Program-made: the position numbers and the translations under genes | Assembly (NCBI GenBank): GCA_012295275.1 | Contig: CM022671.1 | Span: forward strand, 16,926,001-16,990,000 | Length of the DNA: 64,000 bases | DNA from: Chrysomallon squamiferum | Taxonomy: Eukaryota > Animalia > Mollusca | Reading direction: 5' to 3' | The notes under the pieces: model-generated | The model's input: only the letters and a program-made list of their open reading frames with translations | What the model was told of the DNA's origin: nothing | Databases searched by the model: none | Shown here: one piece after another, positions 223-47,482 of the stretch | How the letters are laid out: each line of letters opens with the position of its first letter | Numbering within the stretch: position 1 is the stretch's first letter

Positions 223-228
223 TTTATT
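223..228 (-). terminator. Candidate polyadenylation signal of polyprotein exon copy 1 (present in all five copies)
   Basis: AATAAA on the minus strand ~155 nt after the stop; another AATAAA overlaps the stop codon. The motif is common in AT-rich DNA, so it is weak evidence alone. Confidence 0.4.
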
Positions 229-381
229 TTGACATGTAACAATGTAACAATAAAATATTAAAATGTGCAAACACGTTGTTCTCCGACTCTAGCTGTCACT
301 TTGAACAACAACAACAAGAAAAATAATAAGCCTTTCTCGTAAAAACACGAAACGTTCGATTCAACCAGTTAGAAAGCGCAT

Positions 382-1287
382 TTATTTGGAACCTTTCTGC
401 CCTTCGTTTACCTTCGTTTCGTTGATCTTGTCTTCCAAATCTCGCGTTTTCTCGACAAACTGATCGTCGTTTGCGTGAGTTCGCTTCTCGTGCACTTTTC
501 TTTTGCTTTGACTGAAGAAGAACTTTTCCCTTGCGGATCTGTGCCACCATTTTATCTTCCTTTTCACGTGCGGTTTTCTCAGTTCGGAAATCTCGTCGAG
601 TTCTGGTTGACTGGATTTTTCAGTTAATTTCGGACTCTCAGAATGATTTGGTTGTGGGTCTTTCTTGTTACTGTTCTCGCTGTTACGTTTTGCGCCATTA
701 TTAGCAGTCGTTTGGAGATCGTCTTCCAGTCCTAACTCGGTCTCGGAATCTTCCTTACTTCTTTTTATATGTGTATGCTTATTATCATGTTTCCCATGTG
801 CTGGCTTCATATGTGGAAAACCATATCTTCTGGTCTTTTCATTTTCCCTCTTCGTACGTGATAATTCAGCTTCGTCCTTTCTTTTCACGCGCGATAATTC
901 AGCCTCGTCTCCTCTCTTCACGCGTGACAATTCAGCTTCGTCTCCTCTTTTCACGCGTGACAATTCAGCTTCGTCTACTCGTTTCACGCGTGACAGTTCA
1001 GCTTCGTCTCCTCTTTTAACGCGTGATAATTCAGCTTCGTCAGTTCAGCTTCTTTCTCCTCTTTTAATCGCGCGTGATAATTCAGCTTCTTTCCTTTCAA
1101 CGCGTGATGGGGCAATTTCGTCTCTTTTCACGCGCGATAATTCAGCTTCATTAATTCTCTTTACGCGTGATAATTCCTTTTCCTGGTCTCTCTTGACGCG
1201 AGTGAGTTCCAGAAAGGATTCATCTGATCGCTTCTCGCGCTGCAGTTCAGTCTCTAGATTAAGACTGGCTGGATGTAAAGGAATGGC
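382..1287 (-). pseudogene. Polyprotein terminal exon, copy 1 (frameshifted at ~1030-1070 in this sequence)
   Basis: Acceptor ttttattttatttttccag|GCC ATT CCT at 1287. The frame stops at 1045 (...RAIKRGERS*) and resumes in another frame to the stop at 382 (ORFs 1045..1314 and 382..987). The frameshift may be a consensus error. Confidence 0.75.
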
Positions 1288-2509
1288 CTGGAAAAATAAA
1301 ATAAAACACCCCACCTTTGATTAAAACAGAAACAGAAATAAAAACGAAATAATATTTATGATCCGCAGAATTCATTTACTGTATTGCAATTTCAATGTAA
1401 AGAGACAGAGAGAATAATAATAATTAAAAAAAAAACTAGAAAAAAAAAAAAAATAATAATAATAATAAATTTAAAAACAAAAATAATAATAAAAAAATAA
1501 CAATAAATAAAATAAGACTTTCAAAATATCGTACGTTACATAACACCCACAGATTGCTAGTCCAAGTATATTCCACAATAAATCAGCGTTTTTATTAAGA
1601 AAATCTATAACTGCAAAACTGAAATCTCTTTTGTTTTATTCAATTTACATCATCCACGGTGTAAATCCACAGCATTGCGATTGCACATTTTTTTTCTTTC
1701 TCTCAACTGGCTTCATCACTGATTGAATTTCTAAAGTAATATGAATAGTCTCTCTGCAAAATCTTATATAAATCACCGTGATCCATTCATTTTCTAATCT
1801 GAGTTGGCAGCCTCTCAGGAGAGGACTATTGACGCCTTAAATGAAAGTACGACCACACAAGGAAATGATGAATGACTGTTTCGTATTCATTATGCTAAAT
1901 TAAAATTCTTTGTAGAATCAGCTAAATAAGATATGTTGTGCTTGATATATATACCGATTATTCGAATAACTGTACGATAATGCAGGAATAGTTTGTAGGT
2001 GAAAAAAATGCGAAAATAAGGAAGAAATTTGTTGTTTTGTAAAATGCATCCTTTATCGGAATATATTATAGGTGAGGATGATGGAACAAAATACAATGTT
2101 TGTGATATACGTCCATAAAATAACGTAGCTGGAATACAGTGTGTATGAAAAGAATATTTTAATTTGTTTCGCTTTTTATTCGTGCAAAAACAACGGAAAA
2201 TATTACTGCAACATGAAAATGTTTCATTATTTCAATTACAAAAATGATTAAAATCAGGACTGAAATCAGGGGTCCATCTGTCTGTCTAGATTACAACATA
2301 AAACAATTAGATGTATTTCTAAATACTCTGAGTTTCAGTAACAGATTAATGAGAATTATTAGCATTAAAATAATGACAGATCAACAGTTAAATACTTTGT
2401 CTTTTGATAATTTCAGATAGCTTGAATTTACAATATTAGTAAAGAGAAGAAGACTGAAAGAAATATGTAGACAAAATGTAAGTTGTTTATATAGGAAATG
2501 ATATTTAAA

Positions 2510-2704
2510 AACGTATTTGTTATTGCTTTTGTTGTTGTTATTATTATTATTTTAAATTATTTAAATATTTATTATTATTTATTATTATTTGTAAATTTTA
2601 TTTGAATATTTATTATATTTTTATTCACCAATTACTGTATTTATTTTATTAATACTGCTGCTACTATTGCTGCTGCTGCTACTACTACTACTAACACCAC
2701 CACC

Positions 2705-2740
<36 letters not shown>

Positions 2741-2785
2741 GCTGCTGCTGCTATTGCTGCTGCTGCTACTACTACTACTACTTCT
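2510..2785. repeat. Compound (ATT)n and (ACC)n(ACT)n(GCT)n microsatellite inside each array unit
   Basis: Directly visible; length varies between units (~6905-7120, ~11205-11445, ~15585-15805, ~19930-20130). Confidence 0.9.
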
Positions 2786-3389
2786 ATCCTTTTATTTCTT
2801 ATTCGTTTCTTAGAATAATTATTAATCTATCACGCACGTGTTTGCGTTTTGAAACAATATCTGGATATCGTTTTAATTTTAAAATTTGTTTTTCTTATTA
2901 GTCAATACGTAGATAGATACCACGTTGTACTGAACTAGCACCTATAGCATCAGCTTTCCACAGCTTCTGAAAATTTTATTTGAATGCTGAATAAAATTTA
3001 CAGCATATTTTTGTGATACCCACTGGACAAAAATTTTGATATTTATCATTTTAATGTAACAGTATTTATTGATAGATGACAATAATTTTAATATCTTTTT
3101 AATAATAATTTTTATTTATTTTATTAACTTCAAAAGTTTTTCTCCAAGCCCACAATAATGTGTTTTCCCAGCCCTGGGAAGGTGAATATCAAATATCCTC
3201 TCATTGCTAATTAAAACAAAATAGAATGACACAAGTGGTTTATGTTTCTCATTGATTATGAGGACTTTAACCAAATGTGTTATATCATCATCAGTTATAA
3301 ATATGATATTAACTAAAATATATCTTTCTTTTATCTTGCAAATGAAATGTTATGTGATTTATTTTAACTATAATCTGTTTTAATTTCAG

Positions 3390-3490
3390 ACTTCCACTGG
3401 CCCAGTTCCTTATGTTGATACTGTTCTTATGACACAGACTGCAGCAAAATATAAATCTCGAAGAATGTCAAGAAGATGAATTTTAATAAA
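3390..3490 (+). other. Plus-strand terminal-exon-like segment repeated in each unit (also starting at 7729, 12054, 16416)
   Basis: Branch-like ttttaac and acceptor tgttttaatttcag|, then 29 codons (TSTGPVPYVDTVLMTQTAAKYKSRRMSRR*) in phase 0, then AATAAA at 3485-3490. Parent gene and true frame unknown. Confidence 0.45.
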
Positions 3491-4715
3491 AGGAATTTCT
3501 AATACTTGAAACTGAAGAAAAAAAAAAAAAAAAAAAACTGAAATAAATAAATAAAGTGAAATGAGTGAAATAAATAAAAATTTAAATTAAGAAAACAATT
3601 GTGTTTCTGTAGAAATTAAAGATTATTTTTTTAATATTTGATATATTGTCCATTTTGTTTTAAATTGTTGAGAAAGAATTCTAAACCTGCAAACAGTTTT
3701 AAGCATCTTGTCATTAAAATTTTGTATTTTATTGTTTATTTCTTCATTTTTATTTATTACATTTTATTTTTTTAAAGTTTCTTTTAAATTTAATTTTGAA
3801 GATTGTGTGTAAACGTTCTGGCCTGGTTCATCTTTATGTTTAGAGGATAAAAACTTCTTATTTCATTTTATTTAGAATTTCAAAAAGATTTACTTCAGGA
3901 TAAATTTGTGTTTCAAAAAAAACAAAAGTCTCAATTTTCAAAATTAAAGAGATGACTTTCTTTAGTTCCTTTCATTGGTAAACATCATCTTGCTACTGCT
4001 ATTCAGAGAGACTTGCCAGTATTTCCCGTTTCAAATAATTATTTGAAGAACTATGACTCGCATCTATTAATTGTTCATAACTGTATTTTGATACCATTAA
4101 ACAAATACTCATTATTTAATAACTTCACCAGGTCATTGCATTTAACAGACAGAACTACACTGACAAACTCTATCTTGTCCATCAGCACATAAACATTCAG
4201 CTGCAGTGACGCTCTGGTCATGCAGGTCACAGATATTACGGCTCGATGGCATTTCCCCAAATTTTCATCTCACTGCTGTTCCTATCAAGAGACAATTGCC
4301 TTGATAGGAGGAGAGCAGTAAACCCATTATTCTCACTAATCAACCCATTAACACTGCACTGAACAGAAAACCCGGGCTTCCGGACTTGTTAGCCAGGGCA
4401 GATGTTAATGTCAGATGAAAGTAAACGGATGATTGTGTTTGTATTAATAATGAAATCGATGAACAGCACTGTTTAGTTTTTGGGTAATGTAACTTTACAC
4501 AAAACTGGAAAACGCGAAGTAGTTTATAAAATGTCTGTTGTATCCAGACATTCCTTGTTTATTTTGACATGTAACAATGTAACAATAAAATATTAAAATG
4601 TGAAAATACGTTGTTCTCCGACTCTCGCTGTCACTTTGAACAACAACAACAACAAAAATAAGAAGTCTTTCTCGTAAAACACGAAACGTTCGATTCAACA
4701 AGTTAGAAAGCGCAT

Positions 4716-5669
4716 TTATTTGGAACTTTTCTGCCCTTCGTTTACCTTCGTTTCGTAGACCTTGTCTTCCAAATCGCGCGTTTTCTCGACAAACTGATCG
4801 CCGTTTGCGTGAGTTCGCTTCTCGTGCACATTTCTTTTGCTTTGACTGAGGAAGAACTTTTCCCTTGCGCGTTTCTCCCACCATCCCATCTTCCTTTTCA
4901 CGTGCGGTTTTCTCAGTTCGGAAATCTCGTCGAGTTCTGGTTGACTGGATTTTTTAGTTAATTTCGGACTCTCAGAATGATTTGGTTGTGGGTCTTTCTT
5001 GTTACTGTTCTCGCTGTTACGTTTTGCGCCATTATTAGCAGTCGTCTGGAGATCGTCTTCCAGTCCTAACTCGGTCTCGGAATCTTCCTTACTTCTTTTT
5101 ATATGTGTATGCTTATTATTATGTTTCCCATGTGCTGGATTCATATGTGGAAAAACATGTCTTCTGGTCTTTTCATTTTCCCTCTTCGTACGTGATAATT
5201 CAGCTTCGTTCTTTCTTTTCACGCGCGATAATTCAGCCTCGTCTCCTCTTTTGCGCGTGACAATTCAGCTTCGCCTCCTCTTCACACGCGTGACAATTCA
5301 GCTTCGTCTCCTCTTTTCACGCGTGACAATTCAGCTTCGTCTCCTTTTTCACGCGCGACAGTTCAGCTTCACGCGTGACAGTTCAGCTTCGTCTCCTCTT
5401 TTACGCGTGATAATTCAGCTTCTTTCCTTTCAAAGGGTTGTGGTGGAATTTCTCTTTTTACGCGTGATAATTCAGCTTCTTTCGCGTGAACGCGTGAATT
5501 CGTCTCTTTTCACGCGCGATAATTCAGCTTCATTAATTCTCTTTACGCGTGATAATTCCTTTTCCTGATCTCTCTTGACGCGAGTGAGTTCCAGAAAGGA
5601 TTCATCTGATCGCTTCTCGCGCTGCAGTTCAGTTTCTAGATTAAGACTGGCTGGATGTAAAGGAATGGC
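4716..5669 (-). pseudogene. Polyprotein terminal exon, copy 2 (several indels in the 33-bp repeat tract, ~5250-5500)
   Basis: Same acceptor at 5669, premature stop at 5472, C-terminal frame 4716..5222 intact. Repeat units are scrambled or 1 nt short. Confidence 0.75.
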
Positions 5670-5772
5670 CTGGAAAAAGAAAATAAAACACCCCACCTTT
5701 GATTAAAACAGAAACAGAAATAAAAACGAAATAATTATGATCCGCAGAATTTCAATGTAAAGAGACAGAGAG

Positions 5773-5806
<34 letters not shown>

Positions 5807-6911
5807 TTTAGAACAAAAAAACTTAAAAATACAAAAAATCATAAATTTAAAAACAAAATAATAATAAAAAATAACAATAAATAGAATAAGACTTTCAAAA
5901 TATCGTACGTTACATAACACCCACAGATTGCTAGTCCAAGTATATTCCACAATAAATCAGCGTTTTTATTAAGAAAATCTATAACTGCAAAACTGAAATC
6001 TCTTTTGTTTTATTCAGTTTACATCATCCACGGTGTAAATCCACAGCATTGCGATTGCACATTTTTTTCTTTCTCATAACTGGCTTCATCACTGACTGAA
6101 TTTCTAAAGTAATATGAATAGTCTCTCTGCAAAATCTTATATAAATCACCGTGATCCATTCATTTTCTAATCTGAGTTGGCAGCCTCTCAGGAGAGGACT
6201 ATTGACGCCTTAAATGAAAGTACGACCACACAAGGAAATGATGAACGACTGTTTCGTATTCATTATGCTAAATTAAAATTCTTTGTAGAATCAGCTAAAT
6301 AAGATATGTTGTGCTTGATATATATACCGATTATTCGAATAACTGTACGATAATGCAGGAATAGTTTGTAGGTGAAAAAAATGCGAAAATAAGGAAGAAA
6401 TTTGTTGTTTTGTAAAATGCATCCTTTATCGGAATATATTATAGGTGAGGATGATGGAACAAAATACAATGTTTGTGATATACGTCCATAAAATAACGTA
6501 GCTGGAACACAGTGTGTATGAAAAGAATATTTTTGTATTTCTTTCGCTTTTTATTCGTGCAAAAACAAACGGAAAAGATTACAGCAACATGAAAGTGTTT
6601 CATTATTTCAATTACAAAAACGATTAAAATCAGGACTGAAATCAGGGGTCCATCTGTCTGTCTAGATTACAACATAAAACAATTAGATGTATTTCTAAAT
6701 ACTTTGAGTTTCAGTAGCAGATTAATGAGAATTATTAGCATTAAAATAATGACAGATCAACAGTTAAATACTTTGTCTTTTGATAATTTCAGATAGCTTG
6801 AATTTACAATATTAGTAAAGAGAAGAAGACTGAAAGAAATATGTAGACAAAAATGTAAGTTGTTTATATAGGAAATGATATTTAAAAACGTATTTGTTAT
6901 TGCTTTTGTTG

Positions 6912-6952
<41 letters not shown>

Positions 6953-7037
6953 TTAAATTAATTTGAATATTTATTATATATTTATTCTTAATTACTGTAT
7001 TTATTTTATTAATACTACTACTACTAACACCACCACC

Positions 7038-7079
<42 letters not shown>

Positions 7080-9055
7080 GCTGCTGCTATTGCTGCTGCT
7101 GCTACTACTACTACTACTTCTATCGTTTTATTTCTTATTCGTTTCTTAGAATAATTATTAATCTATCACGCACGTGTTTGCGTTTTGAAACAGTATCTGG
7201 ATATCGTTTTAATTTTAAAATTTGTTTTTCTTATTAGTCAATACGTAGATAGATACCACGTTGTACTGAACTAGCACCTATAGCATCAGCTTTCCACAGC
7301 TTCTGGAAATTTTATTTGAATGCCGAATAAAATTTACAGCATATTTTTGTGATACCCACTGTACAAAAATTTAGATATTTATCATTTTAATGTAACAGTA
7401 TTTATTGATAGATGACAATAATTTTAATATCTTTTTAATAATAATTTTTATTTATTTTATTAACTTCAAAAGTTTTTTCTCCAAGCCCACAATAATGTGT
7501 TTTCTCCAGCCCCTGGGAAGGTGAATATCAAATATCCTCTCATTGCTAATTAAAACAAAATAGAATGACACAAGTGGTTTATGTTTCTCATTGATTATGA
7601 GGACTTTAACCAACTGTGTTATATCATCATCAGTTATAAATATGATATTAACTAAAATATATCTTTCTTTTATCTTGCAAATGAAATGTTATGTGATTTA
7701 TTTTAACTGTAATCTGTTTTAATTTCAGACTTCCACTGGCCCAGTTCCTTATGTTGATACTGTTCTTATGACACAGACTGCAGCAAAATATAAATCTCGA
7801 AGAATGTCAAGAAGATGAATTTTAATAAAAGAATTTCTAATACTTGAAACTGAAGAAAAAAATAAAAAATAAAACTGAAATAAATAAATAAAGTGAAATG
7901 AGTGAAATAAATAAAAATTTAAATTAAGAAAACAATTGTGTTTCTGTAAAAATTAAAGATTATTTTTTTAATATTTGATATATTGTCCATTTTGTTTTAA
8001 ATTGTTGAGAAAGAATTCTAAACCTGCAAACAGTTTTAAGCATCTTGTCATTAAAATTTTGTATTTTATTGTTTATTTCTTCATTTTTATTTATTACATT
8101 TTATTTTTTAAGTTTCTTTTAAATTTAATTTTGAAGATTGTGTGTAAACGTTCTGGCCTGGTTTATCTTTATGTTTAGAGGATAAAAACTTCTTATTTTC
8201 ATTTTATTTAGAATTTCAAAAAGATTTACTTCAGGATAAATTTGTGTTTCAAAAAGAACAAAAGTCTCAATTTTCAAAATTAAAGAGATGACTTTCTTTA
8301 GTTCCTTTCGTTGGTAAACATCATCTTGCTACTGCTACTCAGAGAGACTTGCCAGTATTTCCCGTTTCAAATAATTATTTCAAGAACTGTACGACTCGCA
8401 TCTATTAATTGTTCATAACTGTATTTTGATACCATTAAACAAATACTCATTATTTAATAACTTCACCAGGCCATTGCATTTAACAGACAGAACTACACTG
8501 ACAAACTCTATCTTGTCCATCAGCACATAAACATTCAGCTGCAGTGACGCTCTGGTCATGCAGGTCACAGATATTACGGCTCGATGGCATTTCCCCAAAT
8601 TTTCATCTCACTGCTGTTCCTATCAAGAGACAATTGCCTTGATAGGAGGAGAGCAGTAAACCCATTATTCTCACTAATCAACCCATTAACACTGCACTGA
8701 ACAGAAAACCCGGGCTTCCGGACTTGTTAGCCAGGGCAGATGTTAATGTCAGATGAAAGTAAACGGATGATTGTGTTTGTATTAATAATGAAATCGATGA
8801 ACAGCACTGTTTAGTTTTTGGGTAATGTAACTTTACACAAAACTGCAAAACGCGAAGTAGTTTATAAAATGTCTGTTGTATCCAGACATTCCTTGTTTAT
8901 TTTGACATGTAACAATGTAACAATAAAATATTAAAATGTGAAAATACGTTGTTCTCCGACTCTCGCTGTCACTTTGAACAACAACAACAACAAAAAATAA
9001 GAAGTCTTTCTCGTAAAAACACGAAACGTTCGATTCAACAAGTTAGAAAGCGCAT

Positions 9056-9970
9056 TTATTTGGAACTTTTCTGCCCTTCGTTTACCTTCGTTTCGTAGAC
9101 CTTGTCTTCCAAATCGCGCGTTTTCTCGACAAACTGATCGCCGTTTGCGTGAGTTCGCTTCTCGTGCACATTTCTTTTGCTTTGACTGAGGAAGAACTTT
9201 TCCCTTGCGCGTTTCTCCCACCATCCCATCTTCCTTTTCACGTGCGGTTTTCTCAGTTCGGAAATCTCGTCGAGTTCTGGTTGACTGGATTTTTTAGTTA
9301 ATTTCGGACTCTCAGAATGATTTGGTTGTGGGTCTTTCTTGTTACTGTTCTCGCTGTTTCGTTTTGCTCCATTATTAGCAGTCGTTTGGAGATCGTCTTC
9401 CAGTCCTAACTCGGTCTCGGAATCTTCCTTACTTCTTTTTATATGTGTATGCTTATTATCATGTTTCCCATGTGCTGGCTTCATATGTGGAAAACCATGT
9501 CTTCTGGTCTTTTCATTTTCCCTCTTCGTACGTGATAATTCAGCTTCGTCCTTTCTTTTCACGCGTGATACTTCAGCCTCGTCTCCTCTCTTCACGCGTG
9601 ACAATTCAGCTTCGTCTCCCCTTTTCACGCGTGACAATTCAGCTTCGTCTCCTCTTTTTACGCGCGATAATTCAGTTTCTTTCCTTTCAACGGGTGATGG
9701 TGCAATCTCGTCTCTTTTGACGCGTGACAATTCAGCTTCGTCTCCTCTTTTTACGCGTGATAATTCAGCTTCTTTCCTTTCAACGCGTGATGGTGCAATC
9801 TCGTCTCTTTTCACGCGTGACAATTCAGCTTCATTAATTCTCTTTACGCGTGATAATTCCTTTTCCTGATCTCTCTTGACGCGAGTGAGTTCCAGAAAGG
9901 ATTCATCTGATCGCTTCTCGCGCTGCAGTTCAGTCTCTAGATTAAGACTGGCTGGATGTAAAGGAATGGC
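9056..9970 (-). CDS. Polyprotein terminal exon, copy 3 (intact, 304 aa; 325 aa with leader exon): secreted multi-peptide precursor of unknown family
   Basis: Phase-0 acceptor ...ttccag|AIPLHPASLNLE at 9970 and an open frame to the stop at 9056. It has 11 R-x-K-R sites plus further KR/RR sites, with AATAAA in the downstream flank. Confidence 0.85.
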   Translation of the reverse strand, partial: AIPLHPASLNLETELQREKRSDESFLELTRVKRDQEKELSRVKRINEAELSRVKRDEIAPSRVERKEAELSRVKRGDEAELSRVKRDEIAPSPVERKETELSRVKRGDEAELSRVKRGDEAELSRVKRGDEAEVSRVKRKDEAELSRTKRENEKTRRHGFPHMKPAHGKHDNKHTHIKRSKEDSETELGLEDDLQTTANNGAKRNSENSNKKDPQPNHSESPKLTKKSSQPELDEISELRKPHVKRKMGWWEKRAREKFFLSQSKRNVHEKRTHANGDQFVEKTRDLEDKVYETKVNEGQKSSK

Positions 9971-11209
9971 CTGGAAAAATAAAATAAAACACCCCACCTT
10001 TGATTAAAACAGAAACAGAAATAAAAACGAAATAATATTTATGATCCGCAGAATTCATTTACTGTATTGCAATTTCAATGTAAAGAGACAGAGAGAATAA
10101 TAATAATTAAAAAAAAAACTAGAAAAAAAAAAAAATAATAATAATAATAATAAATTTAAAAACAAAAATAATAATAAAAAAATAACAATAAATAAAATAA
10201 GACTTTCAAAATATCGTACGTTACATAACACCCACAGATTGCTAGTCCAAGTATATTCCACAATAAATCAGCGTTTTTATTAAGAAAAAACTGAAATCTC
10301 TTTTGTTTTATTCAATTTACATCATGCACAGTGTAAATCCACAGCATTGCGATTGCAAATTTTTTTTCTTTCTCTCAACTGGCTTCATCACTGATTGAAT
10401 TTCTAAAGTAATATGAATAGTCTCTGTGCAAAATCTTATATAAATCACCGTGATCCATTCATTTTCTAATCTGAGTTGGCAGCCTCTCGGGAGAGGACTA
10501 TTGACGCCTTAAATGAAAGTACGACCACACGAGGAAATGATGAATGACTGTTTCGTATTCATTATGCTAAATTAAAATTCTTTGTAGAATCAGCTAAATA
10601 AGATATGTTGTGCTTGATATATATACCGATTATTCGAATAACTGTACGATAATGCAGGAATAGTTTGTAGGTGAAAAAAATGCGAAAATAAGGAAGAAAT
10701 TTGTTGTTTTGTAAAATGCATCCTTTATCGGAATATATTATAGGTGAGGATGATGGAACAAAATACAATGTTTGTGATATACGTCCATAAAATAACGTAG
10801 CTGGAATACAGTGTGTATGAAAAGAATATTTTTGTATTTCTTTCGCTTTTTATTCGTGCAAAAACAAACGGAAAAGATTACAGCAACATGAAAGTGTTTC
10901 ATTATTTCAATTACAAAAATGATTAAAATCAGGACTGAAATCAGGGGTCCATCTGTCTGTCTAGATTACAACATAAAACAATTAGATGTATTTCTAAATA
11001 CTTTGAGTTTCAGTAGCAGATTAATGAGAATTATTAGCATTAAAATAATGACAGATCAACAGTTAAATACTTTGTCTTTTGATAATTTCAGATAGCTTGA
11101 ATTTACAATATTAGTAAAGAGAAGAAGACTGAAAGAAATATGTAGACAAAATGTAAGTTGTTTATATAGGAAATGATATTTAAAAACGTATTTGTTATTG
11201 CTTTTGTTG

Positions 11210-11265
<56 letters not shown>

Positions 11266-11353
11266 TTAAATTAATTTGAATATTTATTATATATTTATTC
11301 TTAATTACTGTATTTATTTTATTAATACTACTACTACTAACACCACCACCACC

Positions 11354-11413
<60 letters not shown>

Positions 11414-13382
11414 TTGCTGCTGCTGCTACTACTACTACTACTTCTATCGTTTTATTTCTTATTCGTTTCTTAGAATAATTATTAATCTATCACGCACGTG
11501 TTTGCGTTTTGAAACAGTATCTGGATATCGTTTTAATTTTAAAATTTGTTTTTCTTATTAGTCAATACGTAGATAGATACCACGTTGTACTGAACTAGCA
11601 CCTATAGCATAAGCTTTCCACAGCTTCTGAAAATTTTATTTGAATGCCGAATAAAATTTACAGCATATTTTTGTGATACCCACTGTACAAAAATTTAGAT
11701 ATTTATCATTTTAATGTAACAGTATTTATTGATAGATGACAATAATTTTAATATCTTTTTAATAATAATTTTTATTTATTTTATTAACTTCAAAAGTTTT
11801 TTTCTCCAAGCCCACAATAATGTGTTTTCTCCAGCCCCTGGGAAGGTAAATATCAAATATCCTCTCACTGCTAATTAAAACAAAATAGAATGGCACAAGT
11901 GGTTTATGTTTCTCATTGATTATGAGGACTTTAACCAAATGTGTTATATCATCATCAGTTATAAATATGATATTAACTAAAATATATCTTTCTTTTATTT
12001 TGCAAATGAAATGTTATGTGATTTATTTTAACTATAATCTGTTTTAATTTCAGACTTCCACTGGCCCAGTTCCTTATGTTGATACTGTTCTTATGACACA
12101 GACTGCAGCAAAATATAAATCTCGAAGAATGTCAAGAAGATGAATTTTAATAAAGGAATTTCTAATACTTGAAACTGAAGAAAAAAAATAAAAAATAAAA
12201 CTGAAATAAATAAATAAAGTGAAATGAGTGAAATAAATAAAAATTTAAATTAAGAAAACAATTGTGTTTCTGTAGAAATTAAAGATTATTTTTTTAATAT
12301 TTGATATATTGTCCATTTTGTTTTAAATTGTTGAGAAAGAATTCTAAACCTGCAAACAGTTTTAAGCATCGTGTCATTAAAATTTTGTATTTTATTGTTT
12401 ATTTCTTCATTTTTATTTATTACATTTTATTTTTTAAGTTTCTTTTAAATTTAATTTTGAAGATTGTGTGTAAACGTTCTGGCCTGGTTCATCTTTATGT
12501 TTAGAGGATAAAAACTTCTTATTTCATTTTATTTAGAATTTCAAAAAGATTTACTTCAGGATAAATTTGTGTTTCAAAAAAAACACAAAAGTCTCAATTT
12601 TCAAAATTAAAGAGATGACTTTCTTTAGTTCCTTTCATTGGTAAACAACATCTTGCTACTGCTACTCAGAGAGACTTGCCAGTATTTCCCGTTTCAAATA
12701 ATTATTTCAAGAACTGTACGACTCGCATCTATTAATTGTTCATAACTGTATTTTGATACCATTAAACAAATACTCATTATTTAATAACTTCACCAGGCCA
12801 TTGCATTTAACAGACAGAACTACACTGACAAACTCTATCTTGTCCATCAGCACATAAACATTCAGCTGCAGTGACGCTCTGGTCATGCAGGTCACAGATA
12901 TTACGGCTCGATGGCATTTCCCCAAATTTTCATCTCACTGCTGTTCCTATCAAGAGACAATTGCCTTGATAGGAGGAGAGCAGTAAACCCATTATTCTCA
13001 CTAATCAACCCATTAACACTGCACTGAACAGAAAACCCGGGCTTCCGGACTTGTTAGCCAGGGCAGATGTTAATGTCAGATGAAAGTAAACGGATGATTG
13101 TGTTTGTATTAATAATGAAATCGATGAACAGCACTGTTTAGTTTTTGGGTAATGTAACTTTACACAAAACTGCAAAACGCGAAGTAGTTTATAAAATGTC
13201 TGTTGTATCCAGACATTCCTTGTTTATTTTGACATGTAACAATGTAACAATAAAATATTAAAATGTGAAAATACGTTGTTCTCCGACTCTCGCTGTCACT
13301 TTGAACAACAACAACAACAAAAAATAAGAAGTCTTTCTCGTAAAAACACGAAACGTTCGATTCAACAAGTTAGAAAGCGCAT

Positions 13383-14363
13383 TTATTTGGAACTTTTCTG
13401 CCCTTCGTTTACCTTCGTTTCGTAGACCTTGTCTTCCAAATCGCGCGTTTTCTCGACAAACTGATCGCCGTTTGCGTGAGTTCGCTTCTCGTGCACATTT
13501 CTTTTGCTTTGACTGAGGAAGAACTTTTCCCTTGCGCGTTTCTCCCACCATCCCATCTTCCTTTTCACGTGCGGTTTTCTCAGTTCGGAAATCTCGTCGA
13601 GTTCTGGTTGACTGGATTTTTTAGTTAATTTCGGACTCTCAGAATGATTTGGTTGTGGGTCTTTCTTGTTACTGTTCTCGCTGTTACGTTTTGCGCCATT
13701 ATTAGCAGTCGTCTGGAGATCGTCTTCCAGTCCTAACTCGGTCTCGGAATCTTCCTTACTTCTTTTTATATGTGTATGCTTATTATCATGTTTCCCATGT
13801 GCTGGATTCATATGTGGAAAAACATGTCTTCTGGTCTTTTCATTTTCCCTCTTCGTACGTGATAATTCAGCTTCGTTCTTTCTTTTCACGCGCGATAATT
13901 CAGCCTCGTCTCCTCTTTTCACGCGTGACAATTCAGCTTCGCCTCCTCTTTTCACGCGTGACAATTCAGCTTCGTCTCCTCTTTTCACGCGTGACAATTC
14001 AGCTTCGTCTCCTCTTTTCACGCGCGACAGTTCAGCTTCGTCTACTCTTTTCACGCGTGACAGTTCAGCTTCGTCTCCTCTTTTTACGCGTGATAATTCA
14101 GCTTCTTTCCTTACAAAGGGTTGTGGTGGAATCTCGTCTCTTTTTACGCGTGATAATTCAGCTTCTTTCCTTACAACGCGTGATGGGGCAATCTCGTCTC
14201 TTTTCACGCGCGATAATTCAGCTTCATTAATTCTCTTTACGCGTGATAATTCCTTTTCCTGATCTCTCTTGACGCGAGTGAGTTCCAGAAAGGATTCATC
14301 TGATCGCTTCTCGCGCTGCAGTTCAGTTTCTAGATTAAGACTGGCTGGATGTAAAGGAATGGC
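13383..14363 (-). CDS. Polyprotein terminal exon, copy 4 (intact, 326 aa; 347 aa with leader exon)
   Basis: Phase-0 acceptor at 14363, open frame to the stop at 13383 (ORF 13383..14390), 13 R-x-K-R sites. Confidence 0.85.
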   Translation of the reverse strand, partial: AIPLHPASLNLETELQREKRSDESFLELTRVKRDQEKELSRVKRINEAELSRVKRDEIAPSRVVRKEAELSRVKRDEIPPQPFVRKEAELSRVKRGDEAELSRVKRVDEAELSRVKRGDEAELSRVKRGDEAELSRVKRGGEAELSRVKRGDEAELSRVKRKNEAELSRTKRENEKTRRHVFPHMNPAHGKHDNKHTHIKRSKEDSETELGLEDDLQTTANNGAKRNSENSNKKDPQPNHSESPKLTKKSSQPELDEISELRKPHVKRKMGWWEKRAREKFFLSQSKRNVHEKRTHANGDQFVEKTRDLEDKVYETKVNEGQKSSK

Positions 14364-14466
14364 CTGGAAAAAGAAAATAAAACACCCCACCTTTGATTAA
14401 AACAGAAACAGAAATAAAAACGAAATAATTATGATCCGCAGAATTTCAATGTAAAGAGACAGAGAG

Positions 14467-14500
<34 letters not shown>

Positions 14501-15589
14501 TTTAGAACAAAAAAACTTAAAAATACAAAAAATCATAAATTTAAAAACAAAATAATAATAAAAAATAACAATAAATAGAATAAGACTTTCAAAATATCGT
14601 ACGTTACATAACACCCACAGATTGCTAGTCCAAGTATATTCCACAATAAATCAGCGTTTTTATTAAGAAAAAACTGAAATCTCTTTTGTTTTATTCAATT
14701 TACATCATGCACAGTGTAAATCCACAGCATTGCGATTGCAAATTTTTTTTCTTTCTCTCAACTGGCTTCATCACTGATTGAATTTCTAAAGTAATATGAA
14801 TAGTCTCTGTGCAAAATCTTATATAAATCACCGTGATCCATTCATTTTCTAATCTGAGTTGGCAGCCTCTCGGGAGAGGACTATTGACGCCTTAAATGAA
14901 AGTACGACCACACGAGGAAATGATGAATGACTGTTTCGTATTCATTATGCTAAATTAAAATTCTTTGTAGAATCAGCTAAATAAGATATGTTGTGCTTGA
15001 TATATATACCGATTATTCGAATAACTGTACGATAATGCAGGAATAGTTTGTAGGTGAAAAAAATGCGAAAATAAGGAAGAAATTTGTTGTTTTGTGAAAT
15101 GCATCCTTTATCGGAATATATTATAGGTGAGGATGATGGAACAAAATACACTGTTTGTGATATACGTCCATAAAATAACGTAGCTGGAATACAGTGTGTA
15201 TGAAAAGAATATTTTAATTTTTTCGCTTTTATTCGTGCAAAAACAAACGGAAAAAGATTACAGCAACATGAAAATGTTTCATTATTTCAATTACAAAAAT
15301 GATTAAAATCAGGACTGAAATCAGGGGTCCATCTGTCTGTCTAGATTACAACATAAAACAATTAGATGTATTTCTAAATACTCTGAGTTTCAGTAACAGA
15401 TTAATGAGAATTATTAGCATTAAAATAATGACAGATCAACAGTTAAATACTTTGTCTTTTGATAATTTCAGATAGCTTGAATTTACAATATTAGTAAAGA
15501 GAAGAAGACTGAAAGAAATATGTAGACAAAATGTAAGTTGTTTATATAGGAAATGATATTTAAAAACGTATTTGTTATTGCTTTTGTTG

Positions 15590-15639
<50 letters not shown>

Positions 15640-15727
15640 TTAAATTAATTTGAATATTTATTATATATTTATTCTTAATTACTGTATTTATTTTATTAAT
15701 ACTACTACTACTAACACCACCACCACC

Positions 15728-15766
<39 letters not shown>

Positions 15767-17743
15767 GCTGCTGCTATTGCTGCTGCTGCTACTACTACTA
15801 CTACTTCTATCGTTTTATTTCTTATTCGTTTCTTAGAATAATTATTAATCTATCACGCACGTGTTTGCGTTTTGAAACAGTATCTGGATATCGTTTTAAT
15901 TTTAAAATTTGTTTTTCTTATTAGTCAATACGTAGATAGATACCACGTTGTACTGAACTAGCACCTATAGCATAAGCTTTCCACAGCTTCTGAAAATTTT
16001 ATTTGAATGCCGAATAAAATTTACAGCATATTTTTGTGATACCCACTGTACAAAAATTTAGATATTTATCATTTTAATGTAACAGTATTTATTGATAGAT
16101 GACAATAATTTTAATATCTTTTTAATAATAATTTTTATTTATTTTATTAACTTCAAAAGTTTTTTCTCCAAGCCCACAATAATGTGTTTTCTCCAGCCCC
16201 TGGGAAGGTAAATATCAAATATCCTCTCACTGCTAATTAAAACAAAATAGAATGGCACAAGTGGTTTATGTTTCTCATTGATTATGAGGACTTTAACCAA
16301 ATGTGTTATATCATCATCAGTTATAAATATGATATTAACTAAAATATATCTTTCTTTTATTTTGCAAATGAAATGTTATGTGATTTATTTTAACTATAAT
16401 CTGTTTTAATTTCAGACTTCCACTGGCCCAGTTCCTTATGTTGATACTGTTCTTATGACACAGACTGCAGCAAAATATAAATCTCGAAGAATGTCAAGAA
16501 GATGAATTTTAATAAAGGAATTTCTAATACTTGAAACTGAAGAAAAAAAATAAAAAATAAAACTGAAATAAATAAATAAAGTGAAATGAGTGAAATAAAT
16601 AAAAATTTAAATTAAGAAAACAATTGTGTTTCTGTAGAAATTAAAGATTATTTTTTTAATATTTGATATATTGTCCATTTTGTTTTAAATTGTTGAGAAA
16701 GAATTCTAAACCTGCAAACAGTTTTAAGCATCGTGTCATTAAAATTTTGTATTTTATTGTTTATTTCTTCATTTTTATTTATTACATTTTATTTTTTAAG
16801 TTTCTTTTAAATTTAATTTTGAAGATTGTGTGTAAACGTTCTGGCCTGGTTCATCTTTATGTTTAGAGGATAAAAACTTCTTATTTCATTTTATTTAGAA
16901 TTTCAAAAAGATTTACTTCAGGATAAATTTGTGTTTCAAAAAAAACAAAAGTCTCAATTTTCAAAATTAAAGAGATGACTTTCTTTAGTTCCTTTCATTG
17001 GTAAACAACATCTTGCTACTGCTACTCAGAGAGACTTGCCAGTATTTCCCGTTTCAAATAATTATTTCAAGAACTGTACGACTCGCATCTATTAATTGTT
17101 CATAACTGTATTTTGATACCATTAAACAAATACTCATTATTTAATAACTTCCACCGGGTCATTGTATTTAACAGACAGAACTACACTGACAAACTCTATC
17201 TTGTCCATCAGCACATAAACATTCAGCTGCAGTGACGCTCTGGTCATGCAGGTCACAGATATTACGGCTCGATGGCATTTCCCCAAATTTTCATCTCACT
17301 GCTGTTCCTATCAAGAGACAATTGCCTTGATAGGAGGAGACCAGTAAACCCATTATTCTCACTAACCAACCTATTAACACCGCACTGAACAGAAAATCCG
17401 GGCTTCCGGACTGGTTAGCCAGGGCAGATGTTAATGTCAGATGAAAGTAAACGGATGATTGTGTTTGTATTAATAATGAAATCGATGAATAGCACTGTTT
17501 AGTTTTTGGGTAATGTAACTTTACACAAAACTGCAAAACGCGAAGTAATTTATAAAATGTCTGTTGTATCCAGACATTCCTTGTTTATTTTGACATGTAA
17601 CAATGTAACAATAAAATATTAAAATGTGCAAACACGTTGTTCTCCGACTCTCGCTGTCACTTTGAACAACAACAACAACAAAAAATAAGAAGTCTTTCTC
17701 GTAAAAACACGAAACGTTCGATTCAACCAGTTAGAAAGCGCAT

Positions 17744-18711
17744 TTATTTGGAACCTTTCTGCCCTTCGTTCACCTTCGTTTCGTTGATCTTGTCTTCCAA
17801 ATCGCGCGTTTTCTCGACAAACTGATCGCCGTTTGCGTGAGTTCGCTTCTCGTGCACATTTCTTTTGCTTTGACTGAGGAAGAACTTTTCCCTTGCGCGT
17901 TTCTCCCACCATCCCATCTTCCTTTTCACGTGCGGTTTTCTCAGTTCGGAAATCTCGTCGAGTTCTGGTTGACTGGATTTTTTAGTTAATTTCGGACTCT
18001 CAGAATGATTTGGTTGTGGGTCTTTCTTGTTACTGTTCTCGCTGTTACGTTTTGCGCCATTATTAGCAGTCGTTTGGAGATCGTCTTCCAGTTCTAACTC
18101 GGTCTCGGAAGCTTCCTTACTTCTTTTTATATGTGTATGCTTATTACCATGTTTCCCATGTGCTGGCTTCATATGTGGAAAACCATGTCTTCTGGTCTTT
18201 TCATTTTCCCTCTTCGTACGTGATAATTCAGCTTCGTTCTTTCTTTTCACGCGCGATAATTCAGCCTCGTCTCCTCTTTTCACGCGTGACAATTCAGCTT
18301 CGCCTCCTCTTTTCACGCGTGACAATTCAGCTTCGTCTCCTCTTTTCACGCGTGACAATTCAGCTTCGTCTCCTCTTTTCACGCGCGACAGTTCAGCTTC
18401 GTCTACTCTTTTCACGCGTGACAGTTCAGCTTCGTCTCCTCTTTTAACGCGTGATAATTCAGCTTCTTTCCTTACATAAATTCGTCTCTTTTTACGCGTG
18501 ATAATTCAGCTTCTTTCCTTTCAACGCGTGATGGGGCAATTTCGTCTCTTTTCACGCGTGACAATTCAGCTTCATTAATTCTCTTTACGCGTGATAATTC
18601 CTTTTCCTGATCTCTCTTGGCGCGAGTGAGTTCCAGAAAGGATTCATCTGATCGCTTCTCGCGCTGCAGTTCAGTTTCTAGATTAAGACTGGCTGGATGT
18701 AAAGGAATGGC
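17744..18711 (-). pseudogene. Polyprotein terminal exon, copy 5 (closest to the leader exon; frameshift/stop at ~18472)
   Basis: Acceptor at 18711. Copy 4 reads GAC GAG ATT CCA CCA CAA CCC TTT GTA AGG; this copy reads GAC GAA TTT AT GTA AGG (net -13 nt), giving ...RVKRDEFM*. The downstream frame 17744..18415 is intact. Confidence 0.75.
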
Positions 18712-18822
18712 CTGGAAAAATAAAATAAAACACCCCACCTTTGATTAAAACAGAAACAGAAATAAAAACGAAATAATAATTATGATCCGCAGAATTTCAA
18801 TTTAAAGAGACAGATTTCAATG

Positions 18823-18854
<32 letters not shown>

Positions 18855-19926
18855 TTTAGAACAAAAATACATAAAATAATAAATTTAAAAACAAAATAAT
18901 AATAAAAAAATAACAATAAATAGAATAAGACTTTCAAAATATCGTACGTTACATAACACCCACAGATTGCTAGTCCAAGTATATTCCACAATAAATCAGC
19001 GTTTTTATTAAGAAAAACTGAAATCTCTTTTGTTTTATTCAGTTTACATCATGCACAGTGTAAATCCACAGCATTGCGATTGCAAATTTTTTTTTCTCTC
19101 TCAACTGGCTTCATCACTGACTGAATTTCTAAAGTAATATGAATAGTCTCTGTGCAAAATCTTATATAAATCACCGTGATCCATTCATTTTCTAATCTGA
19201 GTTGGCAGCCTCTCAGGAGAGGACTATTGACGCCTTAAATGAAAGTACGACCACACAAGGAAATGATGAATGACTGTTTCGTATTCATTATGCTAAATTA
19301 AAATTCTTTGTAGAATCAGCTAAATTAGATATGTTGTGCTTGATATGTGTACCGATTATTCGAATAACTGTACGATAATGCAGGAATAGTTTGTAGGTGA
19401 AAAAATAAAAGCGAATATAATGAAATTTGTTGTTTTGTAAAATGCATCCTTTATCGGAATATATTATAGGTGAGGATGATGGAACAAAATACACTGTTTG
19501 TGATATACACCCATAAAATAACGTAGCCGGAATACAGTGTGTATGAAAAGAATATTTTAATTTTTTTCGCTTTTTATTCGTGCAAAAACAACGGAAAAGA
19601 TTACAGCAACATGAAAATGTTTCATTATTTCAATTACAAAAACGATTAAAATCAGGACTGAAATCAGGGGTCCATCTGTCTGTCTAGATTACAACATAAA
19701 ACAATTAGATGTATTTCTAAATACTCTGAGTTTCAGTAGCACATTAATGAGAATTATTAGCATTAAAATAATGACAGATCAACAGTTAGATACTTTGTCT
19801 TTTGATAATTTCAGATAGCTTGAATTTACAATATTAGTAAAGAGAAGAAGATTTAAAGAAATATGTAGACAAAAATGTAAGTTGTTTATATAGGAAATGA
19901 TATTTAAAAAGGTATTTGTTATTGCT

Positions 19927-19966
<40 letters not shown>

Positions 19967-20582
19967 TAAATTTATTTAAATATTTATTATATATTTATTC
20001 TTAATTACTGTATTTATTTTATTAATACCACTACTACTACCACCACCATCAGGACCACCACCACCACCACCACTACTACTACTGCTGCTGCTTGCTGCTG
20101 CTGCTACTACTACTACTACTACTACTACTTTTTATTTCTTATTCGTTTCGTAGAATAATTATTAATCTATCACGCACGTGTTTGCGTTTTGAAACAATAT
20201 CTGGATATCGTTTTAATTTTAAAATTTGTTTTTCTTATTACGTCAATACGTAGATAGATACCACGTTGTACTGAACTAGCACCTATAAACATCAGATTTC
20301 CACAACTTCTCTTTGTTGTCGTTATTCAACCACTGGTTTGGTTTCCTAGTAACATTAAACTCTGATTAGTTCTGCTGTCTGAGGTATTTCCTTACGTAGA
20401 TCGGCGCCATTTCAGAAAGTAGTCACCAAGTAACCATGTCAGAACTTGCCATTGTTCGATATTGATTTCGCTGGAGGACGTTTATTTGTATTGTGTAATT
20501 GCTAACGAACCAGATTTGTCCCAGGTGACCACTGGACGATTTATAATTATCTGCACACGAGTGAGATAATGATTTCACACAT

Positions 20583-46975: not shown

Positions 46976-47012
<37 letters not shown>

Positions 47013-47446: not shown

Positions 47447-47482
<36 letters not shown>

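What the first reader, a model, noticed from the sequence alone, without database searches (positions are those of the whole stretch)
13383..14363. Unrecognised secreted polyprotein made of an 11-aa repeat ending in the furin consensus RVKR
Seen: 13 R-x-K-R sites in copy 4 and 11 in copy 3. They separate short acidic units (GDEAELS, VDEAELS, INEAELS, DQEKELS, SDESFLELT), followed by KR/RR-flanked unique segments. There is no Cys and no Gly before the repeated KR sites, so products would be linear and non-amidated. Known: R-x-K/R-R is the furin site and KR the PC1/3-PC2 site; repeated acidic spacers typify multi-peptide precursors (apidaecin, magainin, yeast alpha-factor). Inference: a pheromone, neuropeptide or defence-peptide precursor that I cannot assign to a named family. 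An uncleaved 11-residue-periodicity helical protein is the alternative.
Basis: partly seen in the sequence, partly recalled or inferred. Interest (0 to 1): 0.75.

Follow-up and report, generated by a model that had tools for sequence, protein, structure and literature searches.

The report
LXRX neuropeptide precursor gene array
This is one of five tandem copies of a mollusc gene from the already named LXRX neuropeptide-precursor family; its protein is likely cut at its repeated RVKR sites into many short acidic peptides of unknown function, so it is a known kind of gene.

Summary
13383-14363 (minus strand) is one open exon with 13 R-x-K-R sites (11 in copy 3), no Cys and no Gly before a dibasic site. 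It is built on a 33-bp / 11-residue repeat, x-D-E-A-E-L-S-R-V-K-R. None of 5000 shuffles reached that site count.

The gene is not unrecognised. Profile searches link it to secreted proteins of gastropods, mussels, oysters and unionids. The oyster members match Cragi-LXRX, a member of the lophotrochozoan LXRX proneuropeptide family named in Platynereis in 2013. Published mass spectrometry found LXRX peptides in oyster ganglia and in Platynereis, including one ending in ELSRT. They show cleavage at L-x-R-x-K-R.

The claim of novelty is not.

Particular to this window:
- There are five tandem 4.3-kb gene copies.
- The repeat is unusually regular at 11 residues.
- Only two of the five copies have an intact large exon.
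- The first exon gives no convincing signal peptide as assembled.
- Transcription in this species is not shown.

The function of LXRX peptides is unknown in any species. Interest is low to moderate.

The parts
13383..14363 (-). Large (second, last) exon of gene copy 4: 326 codons plus stop codon (13383-13385). This is the finding itself.
   Evidence: Open frame. Acceptor ttttccag|GCC at 14364/14363. Homology to LXRX-family proteins over 89% of its length.
13848..14315 (-). Repeat region holding all 13 R-x-K-R sites (residues 17-172). Units are of 11, 13 or 20 residues, each ending (E)-L-[ST]-R-x-K-R.
13858..14105 (-). Core 33-bp tandem repeat (7.5 copies, 91% matches) encoding G/V-D-E-A-E-L-S-R-V-K-R.
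   Evidence: Unit DNA is listed.
13386..13847 (-). Non-repetitive C-terminal part. It holds a His-rich basic segment and 7 further dibasic sites.
   Evidence: Aligned with gastropod relatives.
13515..13565 (-). KR-KMGWWE-KR-AREKFF motif, conserved in the three gastropod proteins. It is the only confidently modelled helix (block 271-280, pLDDT 86).
13382..13387 (-). AATAAA polyadenylation-signal-like hexamer overlapping the stop codon.
   Evidence: Read from the sequence. Its use is not tested.
14364..14703 (-). Predicted intron (GTAAAT ... TTTTCCAG), 340 bases.
   Evidence: Sequence. No RNA joint was seen, so this is inferred.
14704..14771 (-). Candidate first exon. The upstream ATG (14771-14769) is out of frame. 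An A8 run lies at 14750-14743. The in-frame ATG at 14730 gives MLWIYTVHD, ending at 14704 in phase 0.
   Evidence: Conserved in all five copies. The signal peptide is not convincing as assembled.
14818..14825 (-). TATATAAG, a TATA-box-like element 47-54 bases upstream of the first ATG.
   Evidence: identical in all five copies. Function is inferred.
382..1287 (-). Copy 1, large exon. It is disrupted: +4 and -19 base indels produce an in-frame stop.
4716..5669 (-). Copy 2, large exon. It is disrupted by five frame-breaking deletions of 8, 1, 13, 1 and 1 bases.
9056..9970 (-). Copy 3, large exon. It is intact: 304 codons and 11 R-x-K-R sites.
17744..18711 (-). Copy 5, large exon. It is disrupted by one 13-base deletion.
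1..20310 (-). Tandem array of five 4.3-kb units. Copy 1 lies at the window's left edge, so the array may continue beyond it.

Best explanation
The stretch 13383-14363 (minus strand) is the large exon of a member of the lophotrochozoan LXRX proneuropeptide family, and its product is predicted to be cut by furin/PC-type convertases after each L-S-R-V-K-R into about a dozen nine-residue acidic peptides ending in L-S-R-V.

Shown here:
- The open exon, its 13 R-x-K-R sites and the 33-bp repeat.
- Five tandem gene copies, two of them with an intact large exon.
- Sequence homology to proteins of gastropods and bivalves that carry hydrophobic N-termini.
- The match of the oyster members to the published Cragi-LXRX.

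Taken from papers: LXRX peptides were detected by mass spectrometry in oyster visceral ganglia and in Platynereis, and the oyster gene is expressed almost only in the ganglia.

Inferred for this window:
- Entry into the secretory pathway.
- Cleavage C-terminal to R-x-K-R and the other KR/RR sites, followed by removal of the basic residues by a carboxypeptidase. This would release about 12 short acidic peptides. Four are copies of GDEAELSRV (974.47 Da). The others include VDEAELSRV, INEAELSRV, DQEKELSRV, GGEAELSRV and KNEAELSRT, two 18-residue forms, and unique C-terminal peptides such as KMGWWE.
- Release from neurons as signalling peptides.

The receptor and the physiological role are unknown in every species.
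For: Homology:
- A search with the exon's protein found Gigantopelta aegis XP_041348496 (auto-named 'trichohyalin-like'): E 2.9e-45, 44% identity, 89% coverage. Three proteins reached E<=0.01 among 7998 scored candidates.
- A profile search over 1.84 billion representatives gave 116 hits at E<=0.001. The two gastropod proteins matched the profile through to its C-terminal end (P0002 nearly whole). P0060, P0075 (Mytilus trossulus) and P0116 matched over most of their length. Most of the remaining listed matches lie in profile positions of about 20-220, which is the repeat region.
- A second profile search gave 21 hits at E<=0.001 among 7998 candidates. They include Mytilus edulis, Saccostrea echinata, Potamilus and Sinanodonta proteins and many contigs of about 1 to 2.3 kb.

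Link to the named family:
- P0131 starts with the same 40 residues as the C. gigas row of the alignment in Supplementary Figure S1, page 24, of PMC8398477.
- Five of the seven MS peptides that paper labels Cragi-LXRX occur exactly in P0131.
- BLASTP of the window protein against P0131 gives 47% identity over 76 residues, E 2e-8.
- hhalign of the gastropod profile against the oyster profile gives probability 96.7%, E 3.8e-10.

Processing in relatives:
- The oyster MS peptides LEKEIALHRM and GEVSHASKHASNKLSNSENT flank an L-H-R-M-K-R site.
- The Platynereis MS peptide DRDLEEPELSRT ends as the window's last unit, KNEAELSRT, does.

Constraint on the motif:
- Among 16 eleven-residue units of copies 3 and 4, positions 5-11 (E-L-S-R-V-K-R) differ in 264 synonymous against 43 non-synonymous pairwise codon comparisons. 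Positions 1-4 differ in 30 against 180.
- Across the family the spacing between sites varies while [LVIM]-x-R-x-K-R is kept.

The AlphaFold2 model is mostly disordered, which would leave the sites accessible.
Against: - No signal peptide is established for the window's own copies. The only in-frame start gives MLWIYTVHD, whose best 8-residue hydropathy is 1.04 against 2.65-3.88 in four relatives. The first ATG is out of frame in all five copies. No better first exon was found between 14364 and 17743.
- Three of the five copies have frame-breaking indels or a stop in the large exon.
- Transcription in this species is not shown. Two RNA libraries hold only small low-depth contigs on the exon (13636-13849, 13948-14010, 13336-13536). 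They also hold one on intergenic DNA (15334-15552), and no splice joint was seen.
- None of the seven oyster MS peptides is one of the short x-ELSR-x units.
- No receptor or function is known for any LXRX peptide.
Confidence: 0.8

Rival explanations
1. The window's array is partly or wholly a decaying set of pseudogenes, and the working LXRX gene of this animal lies elsewhere. On this reading even copies 3 and 4 would not yield a secreted protein.
For: - The large exon is broken in 3 of 5 copies, by deletions of 8, 13 and 19 bases that do not look like homopolymer miscalls.
- In all five copies the first ATG is out of frame with the hydrophobic stretch, and the in-frame start is weakly hydrophobic.
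- DNA contigs of two other runs leave the window sequence at 14742/14743. They continue into a different version that would read M-F-I-A-I-V-F-I-A-I, a normal signal-peptide core. A copy or allele with a proper first exon therefore exists.
Against: - Copies 3 and 4 keep 304 and 326 open codons.
- Variation among their units is mostly synonymous in E-L-S-R-V-K-R.
- TATA element, donor and acceptor are identical in all copies.
- RNA-library contigs identical to copy 4 lie on the exon.
- Some indels may be assembly errors in a repeat.
Confidence: 0.25
2. LXRX proteins, this one included, act mainly through the motif itself. On this reading they are multivalent binders or slow substrates of prohormone convertases, a functional analogue of vertebrate proSAAS. 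They would not be precursors of receptor ligands.
For: - The only element kept across gastropod and bivalve members, and visible in the printed Platynereis sequence, is [L]-x-R-x-K-R.
- In this window it is L-S-R-V-K-R. That matches 5 of the 6 positions of L-L-R-V-K-R, the proSAAS-derived hexapeptide used as a PC1/3 inhibitor (passages of PMC3467282).
- Variants at the fifth position (LM, LK, LY) still inhibit PC2 at sub-micromolar Ki (table in PMC3579927).
- The oyster gene is ganglion-specific, which fits a neuroendocrine accessory protein.
Against: - There is no sequence similarity to proSAAS or 7B2. Pfam returned nothing above threshold for the window protein or for 11 relatives.
- MS shows that the sites are cleaved in the oyster and in Platynereis.
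- proSAAS has one such site, not a dozen.
- No enzyme assay exists.
Confidence: 0.1
3. It is an uncleaved protein whose 11-residue periodicity forms a long amphipathic or charged helix. The database names 'trichohyalin-like' and 'RNA-binding protein 25-like' point to the same kind of reading.
For: The exact 11-residue period occurs in this window and in two gastropod relatives. The composition is rich in charged residues. AlphaFold2 draws helices at residues 36-50 and 152-181.
Against: - The period is not a family property. Spacings in bivalve members run from 3 to 78 residues.
- Five of the eleven-residue units in copy 4 begin with Gly.
- The repeat region is modelled at pLDDT below 50 for most of its length, and pTM is 0.18.
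- Relatives have N-terminal hydrophobic leaders and cleaved products were found by MS.
- No Pfam domain of trichohyalin or RBM25 type was found.
Confidence: 0.03

Closest known systems
LXRX proneuropeptide family: Platynereis dumerilii LXRX (Conzelmann et al. 2013, PMC3890597) and Crassostrea gigas Cragi-LXRX, XP_011417984.2 (Realis-Doyelle et al. 2021, PMC8398477)
   Same: - An N-terminal block, x-L-x-L-E-x-E-L-x-R-V-K-R, follows the leader.
- Several units each end in L-x-R-x-K-R.
- There is no Gly for amidation and no Cys in the peptides.
- The tail is long, basic and His-rich.
- Direct similarity to the oyster protein is E 2e-8, and the profile-profile probability is 96.7%.
- The Platynereis MS peptide ends in ELSRT, as does the window's last unit.
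   Different: - Here the units are regularised into a near-perfect 33-bp / 11-residue tandem repeat with up to 13 sites. Oysters have about 6 sites at uneven spacing.
- The bivalve 'RVKR-x-KR' double sites are absent.
- A KMGWWEKRAR motif is shared only with two other gastropod proteins.
- The gene stands in a five-copy tandem array.
- The signal peptide is not established in the window copies.
Gigantopelta aegis XP_041348496.1, auto-named 'trichohyalin-like', and an unnamed ENA protein (P0003)
   Same: These are the closest full-length relatives (44% and 40% identity). They share the 11-residue x-D/E-E-x-E-L-S-R-V-K-R repeat and the KR-[KQ]-MGWWE-KR-AR-x-x-FF motif.
   Different: The Gigantopelta protein has a clear hydrophobic leader and a longer basic tail ending in KRLTE. 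Its name comes from automatic annotation and does not fit. No S100/EF-hand or other domain was found (the domain make-up of trichohyalin is recalled).
proSAAS inhibitory hexapeptide L-L-R-V-K-R (vertebrate PC1/3 inhibitor)
   Same: L-S-R-V-K-R shares P6 Leu, P4 Arg, P3 Val, P2 Lys and P1 Arg with the inhibitor. Both proteins are neuroendocrine secretory proteins.
   Different: There is no detectable homology. P5 is Ser, not Leu. There are many copies instead of one. Inhibition is untested.
Classical multi-copy peptide precursors (yeast alpha-factor, honeybee apidaecin, molluscan FMRFamide and pedal-peptide precursors). These come from recall, not from a call.
   Same: They have the same logic: one secreted polyprotein with tandem copies of a short peptide separated by dibasic convertase sites.
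   Different: They are unrelated in sequence. Here the conserved part is the C-terminal L-x-R-x of each peptide plus the site itself. The peptides are acidic and non-amidated.

Membership tests
LXRX proneuropeptide family | Significant sequence similarity to named members | tested here: met
   BLASTP against P0131 (an oyster protein matching Cragi-LXRX) gives E 2e-8, 47% identity over 76 residues. hhalign of the gastropod profile against the oyster profile gives 96.7%, E 3.8e-10. Profile searches retrieve oyster, mussel and unionid members. The link from P0131 to the name rests.
LXRX proneuropeptide family | Several peptides ending in L-x-R-x, each followed by a dibasic site (my reading of the family's name; the papers' passages do not spell it out) | tested here: met
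   The window protein has 13 [LVIM]-x-R-x-K-R sites, and 12 of them are L-[ST]-R-x-K-R.
LXRX proneuropeptide family | N-terminal signal peptide | tested here: inconclusive
   Relatives have hydrophobic leaders, with best 8-residue hydropathy 2.65-3.88. The window's only in-frame start scores 1.04. The first ATG is out of frame in all five copies. No signal-peptide predictor was available.
LXRX proneuropeptide family | Expression in the nervous system | not testable with these tools
   Only two RNA libraries of unstated tissue held small pieces of the exon, and no splice joint was seen. For the oyster this is stated in PMC8398477.
LXRX proneuropeptide family | Processing into peptides shown by mass spectrometry | not testable with these tools
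   It is shown in the papers for the oyster (7 peptides) and for Platynereis (2 peptides). It has not been shown for this species.
Trichohyalin (the name given to the closest relative) | Intracellular protein with an N-terminal S100/EF-hand domain (recalled) | tested here: not met
   The window protein has no Pfam family above threshold; the two weak rows are E 0.25 and 4.6. The 11 relatives have none either. Relatives carry secretory leaders.
proSAAS | Homology to proSAAS, and a single C-terminal LLRVKR inhibitory site | tested here: not met
   No Pfam match of any kind was returned. The motif L-S-R-V-K-R is present but in 11-13 copies. This lowers 'is a proSAAS'. It does not lower 'could bind convertases as proSAAS does'.

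The most novel reading that the evidence does not exclude
LXRX proteins are not ligand precursors but multivalent convertase-directed proteins. Their one element conserved across the mollusc members, L-x-R-x-K-R, is the proSAAS-type PC1/3-binding hexapeptide. This gastropod version, with 13 tandem L-S-R-V-K-R heads, would be an invertebrate functional counterpart of proSAAS that buffers or regulates prohormone convertase activity in neurons.
Probability: 0.1. Interest if true: 0.6.

Novelty: new member of a known kind. Interest (0 to 1): 0.25.

Why it matters
The finding puts a name on a gene that public annotation mislabels. Sources call relatives 'trichohyalin-like', 'RNA-binding protein 25-like' or 'uncharacterized'. 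These belong to the LXRX proneuropeptide family.

The family is conserved across molluscs, annelids and phoronids. The oyster paper notes a paucity of reports on the function of LXRX peptides, and my two searches containing the term 'LXRX' (in the scan's own notes) turned up no report of a receptor. My literature searches by peptide string found nothing relevant to the repeat.

The gastropod form is the most regular example. About a dozen near-identical nine-residue peptides come from one exon, and the gene is amplified fivefold. That makes the predicted peptide GDEAELSRV an easy target for peptidomics and for receptor de-orphanisation. The resemblance of L-S-R-V-K-R to the proSAAS inhibitor offers a second, cheap test.

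Tried and rejected
- Pfam on the window protein and on 11 relatives returned nothing above threshold.
- The ESM Atlas gave no usable hit.
- No whole genome is held for the window, so other copies could not be sought.
- Earlier-findings look-ups by place, by sequence and by 'RVKR furin...' words were empty.
- Literature string searches: 'ELSRVKR' and 'LSRVKR' gave 0 papers. 'ELSRV' gave 20 papers, none relevant by title or abstract. Six further motif strings gave 1 paper, an unrelated Conus con-ikot-ikot propeptide site.
- The supplements of the 2014 oyster survey (PMC4200219; 6 files searched, 2 picture-only files not readable) and of the 2018 scallop survey (PMC5996578; 6 files) do not hold the family under the strings SRVKR, KRVKR, SRMKR or HHVQHHR. 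The one hit is an unrelated precursor.
- Read laying: four runs were laid on 13000-16500. RNA contigs cover only parts of the exon at depth 2.6-11.6 and show no joints. Parts without RNA cover, and the small word shares of X8 and X9 (0.19, 0.07), are no evidence either way.
- A scan of 14364-17743 for an ATG-started, hydrophobic, phase-0 first exon found none with support. The top candidate, at 15420-15382, is crossed unspliced by an RNA-library contig.
- The AlphaFold2 model (pLDDT 50.5) was too poor for a fold search, so none was run.
- The plus-strand and alternative-frame ORFs through the repeat (for example 13648-14262 +) were rejected as coding. They exist only because a repeat without stops stays open, and they end with the repeat. 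The minus frame continues into a unique part that is conserved between species.

Full report
**What is there.** The window is AT-rich animal DNA, with GC mostly 0.25-0.38 per 2 kb. On the minus strand, 13386-14363 is an open frame of 326 codons ending in a stop at 13383-13385. Its 5' end is a splice acceptor (ttttccag|GCC), so the finding's coordinates are exactly one exon.

The protein has 13 R-x-K-R sites, 11 of them RVKR, and 20 dibasic sites in all. It has no Cys and no Gly before a dibasic site. Zero of 5000 shuffles reach 13 sites (mean 0.58). The sites sit in a 33-bp tandem repeat (13858-14105, 7.5 copies, 91% matches) and its more diverged flanks. The units are 11, 13 or 20 residues long and all end in (E)-L-[ST]-R-x-K-R.

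The exon is one of five. BLAST of the unit against the window shows five tandem 4.3-kb units, 93-97% identical including intergenic DNA, from the window's left edge to about 20310.

**State of the copies.**
- Only copies 3 and 4 have an intact large exon.
- Copy 1 has +4 and -19 base indels that create an in-frame stop.
- Copy 2 has five frame-breaking deletions of 8, 1, 13, 1 and 1 bases.
- Copy 5 has one 13-base deletion.

**Upstream of the exon.** All five copies share the same layout: a TATATAAG element, an ATG 47-54 bases further on, an A7/A8 run, a hydrophobic stretch (F-A-I-A-M-L-W-I-Y-T-V) and a GTAAAT/GTAAAC donor in phase 0. The first ATG is out of frame with that stretch in every copy. 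The only in-frame start gives MLWIYTVHD joined to AIPLHPA..., whose best 8-residue hydropathy is 1.04, against 2.65-3.88 for four relatives. A scan of the whole upstream interval found no better first exon.

DNA contigs from two other runs diverge at 14742/14743 into a version that would read M-F-I-A-I-V-F-I-A-I. Another copy or allele with a normal leader therefore exists. The signal peptide of the window copies remains unproven.

**Transcription.** Nine of the 11 listed public runs hold part of the stretch, and two of those nine are RNA libraries with small word shares. Laid on 13000-16500, those two give contigs on the exon: 13636-13849 with no differences, 13948-14010, and 13336-13536 from a copy-1-like gene. 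Depths are 2.6-11.6. They also give one contig on intergenic DNA (15334-15552), and no joint was seen. This does not show transcription.

**Relatives.** The protein alone finds Gigantopelta aegis XP_041348496, auto-named 'trichohyalin-like' (E 2.9e-45, 44% identity, 89% coverage), and an unnamed ENA protein. The three share the 11-residue repeat and a KR-[KQ]-MGWWE-KR-AR-x-x-FF motif.

A profile of the three, searched against 1.84 billion representatives, gave 116 hits at E<=0.001. Most of them match only the repeat region. P0060, P0075 (Mytilus trossulus, 'uncharacterized') and P0116 share the whole plan. A wider profile found 21 proteins among 7998 scored candidates. They come from Mytilus edulis, Saccostrea echinata ('RNA-binding protein 25-like'), Potamilus, Sinanodonta and many contigs of about 1 to 2.3 kb.

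The common plan is:
- a hydrophobic leader;
- a KR site followed by x-E-V-A-x-x-L-x-L-E-x-E-L-K-R-V-K-R;
- units of variable length, each ending [LVIM]-x-R-x-K-R and in bivalves often followed by x-KR;
- a long basic, His-rich tail.

No Pfam family fits any of them.

**The name.** String searches of paper supplements for SRVKR found this family in two places:
- The sequence files of De Oliveira et al. 2019 (PMC6425005) hold Bathymodiolus, Patinopecten, Ennucula, Nucula and two Phoronis sequences.
- Supplementary Figure S1, page 24, of Realis-Doyelle et al. 2021 (PMC8398477) holds an alignment of C. gigas, M. californianus, H. asinina and P. dumerilii.

The C. gigas row begins as P0131 does. 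Supplementary Table 2 of the same paper labels seven MS peptides 'Cragi-LXRX', and all seven can be read in that row (the first only as the table prints it, which its listed mass shows is cut short). Five occur exactly in P0131. The family is therefore LXRX. It is listed among the lophotrochozoan proneuropeptide families of Platynereis in Conzelmann et al. 2013 (passage and supplements of PMC3890597). De Oliveira et al. extend it to other lophotrochozoan phyla (passage), and Thiel et al. 2021 find it in phoronids (passage of PMC8557429).

Direct tests agree. BLASTP of the window protein against P0131 gives E 2e-8. hhalign of the gastropod profile against the oyster profile gives 96.7%, E 3.8e-10. 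After I had reached this, a look-up in the scan's own notes showed that another agent had filed a scallop gene under LXRX as well.

**How it likely works.** The published peptidomics bears on the mechanism.
- In the oyster, LEKEIALHRM and GEVSHASKHASNKLSNSENT lie on either side of an L-H-R-M-K-R site. That site is therefore cut and the KR removed.
- In Platynereis, DRDLEEPELSRT was detected. It ends as the window's last unit, KNEAELSRT, does.

In the window, selection acts on the motif. Among 16 units, E-L-S-R-V-K-R differs in 264 synonymous against 43 non-synonymous pairwise codon comparisons. Positions 1-4 show the reverse, 30 against 180 (pairwise counts, not independent events). The AlphaFold2 model is mostly disordered, with mean pLDDT 50.5 and pTM 0.18. 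Only the KMGWWEKRAREKFF helix is confident.

By inference, convertases in the secretory pathway cut after each R-x-K-R and KR. A carboxypeptidase then trims the basic residues. About a dozen acidic peptides of 9 residues are released, together with two of 18 residues and several unique C-terminal peptides. Four of the 9-residue peptides are GDEAELSRV (974.47 Da, net charge about -2).

**Rivals.**
- The helical-repeat alternative fails at family level. Site spacings range from 3 to 78 residues outside the three gastropods.
- The pseudogene reading cannot be dismissed for this array, given the disruptions listed above.
- The most novel reading concerns the motif itself. L-S-R-V-K-R matches 5 of 6 positions of L-L-R-V-K-R, the proSAAS-derived PC1/3 inhibitor (passages of PMC3467282 and PMC3579927). 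It is the only element kept across the mollusc members. LXRX proteins could therefore act on convertases. The MS evidence of cleavage and the lack of any homology to proSAAS speak against it, and no assay exists.

**Verdict.** This is a new gastropod member, amplified and unusually regular, of a named family whose function is unknown.

**What I saw of the papers.**
- PMC8398477: outline, abstract, passages, figure legends, supplement part 5 and table rows.
- PMC6425005, PMC3890597: one passage each, plus supplement passages. Files 2 and 3 of the former were cut when stored. Files 2 and 4-7 of the latter were not searched.
- PMC8557429, PMC3467282, PMC3579927, PMC8541002: passages only.
- PMC4200219, PMC5996578: supplement search only.

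Noticed in passing
window 43863-53440, minus strand: Exons of an unrelated neighbouring gene. One has a PDZ domain (50837-51229; Pfam PDZ E 2.3e-8). Another shows a weak harmonin-homology match (53054-53440; CCM2_C E 0.005, below cut-off). Together they look like a whirlin/harmonin-type scaffold gene (the gene name is my guess).
   Followed up: partly
window 14742-14743: DNA contigs of two other runs (X5, X7) leave the window sequence here. They continue into a different first-exon version that would encode M-F-I-A-I-V-F-I-A-I. This is a further copy or allele with a normal-looking signal-peptide core.
   Followed up: partly
window 16413-16500 (also short pieces at 16131-16148 and 16356-16376): Contigs of 475-1306 bases from both RNA libraries match here and then run on into unlike sequence. 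The plus strand has tttaatttcag|ACTTCC at 16415/16416. This could be an exon of another, plus-strand transcript, or a repeat, inside each 4.3-kb unit.
   Followed up: no
proteins P0005 and P0025: Two unnamed database proteins carry look-alike 11-residue repeats. P0005 (ENA, 1.29-Mb contig) has ten copies of an 11-residue SRVKPGDEANV unit, identical apart from short insertions in two of them. P0025 (JGI, 1-kb contig) has a signal-peptide-like start followed by about twelve Q-G-N-N-Q-A-V-R-V-K-R units. It is not known whether these are diverged LXRX genes, decayed copies or convergent.
   Followed up: no
window 29063-29768: A roughly 700-base trinucleotide (AAT/ATT-type) microsatellite is open in several frames, reading as poly-Asn or poly-Leu. 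Each 4.3-kb unit also carries TAC, TTA and AAT microsatellites.
   Followed up: no
window 13648-14262 (+) and 13258-13620 (-): Long ORFs in other frames and on the other strand run through the repeat and the 3' part of the exon. They recur in every copy because the repeat has no stops in those frames. They have no support as genes.
   Followed up: partly
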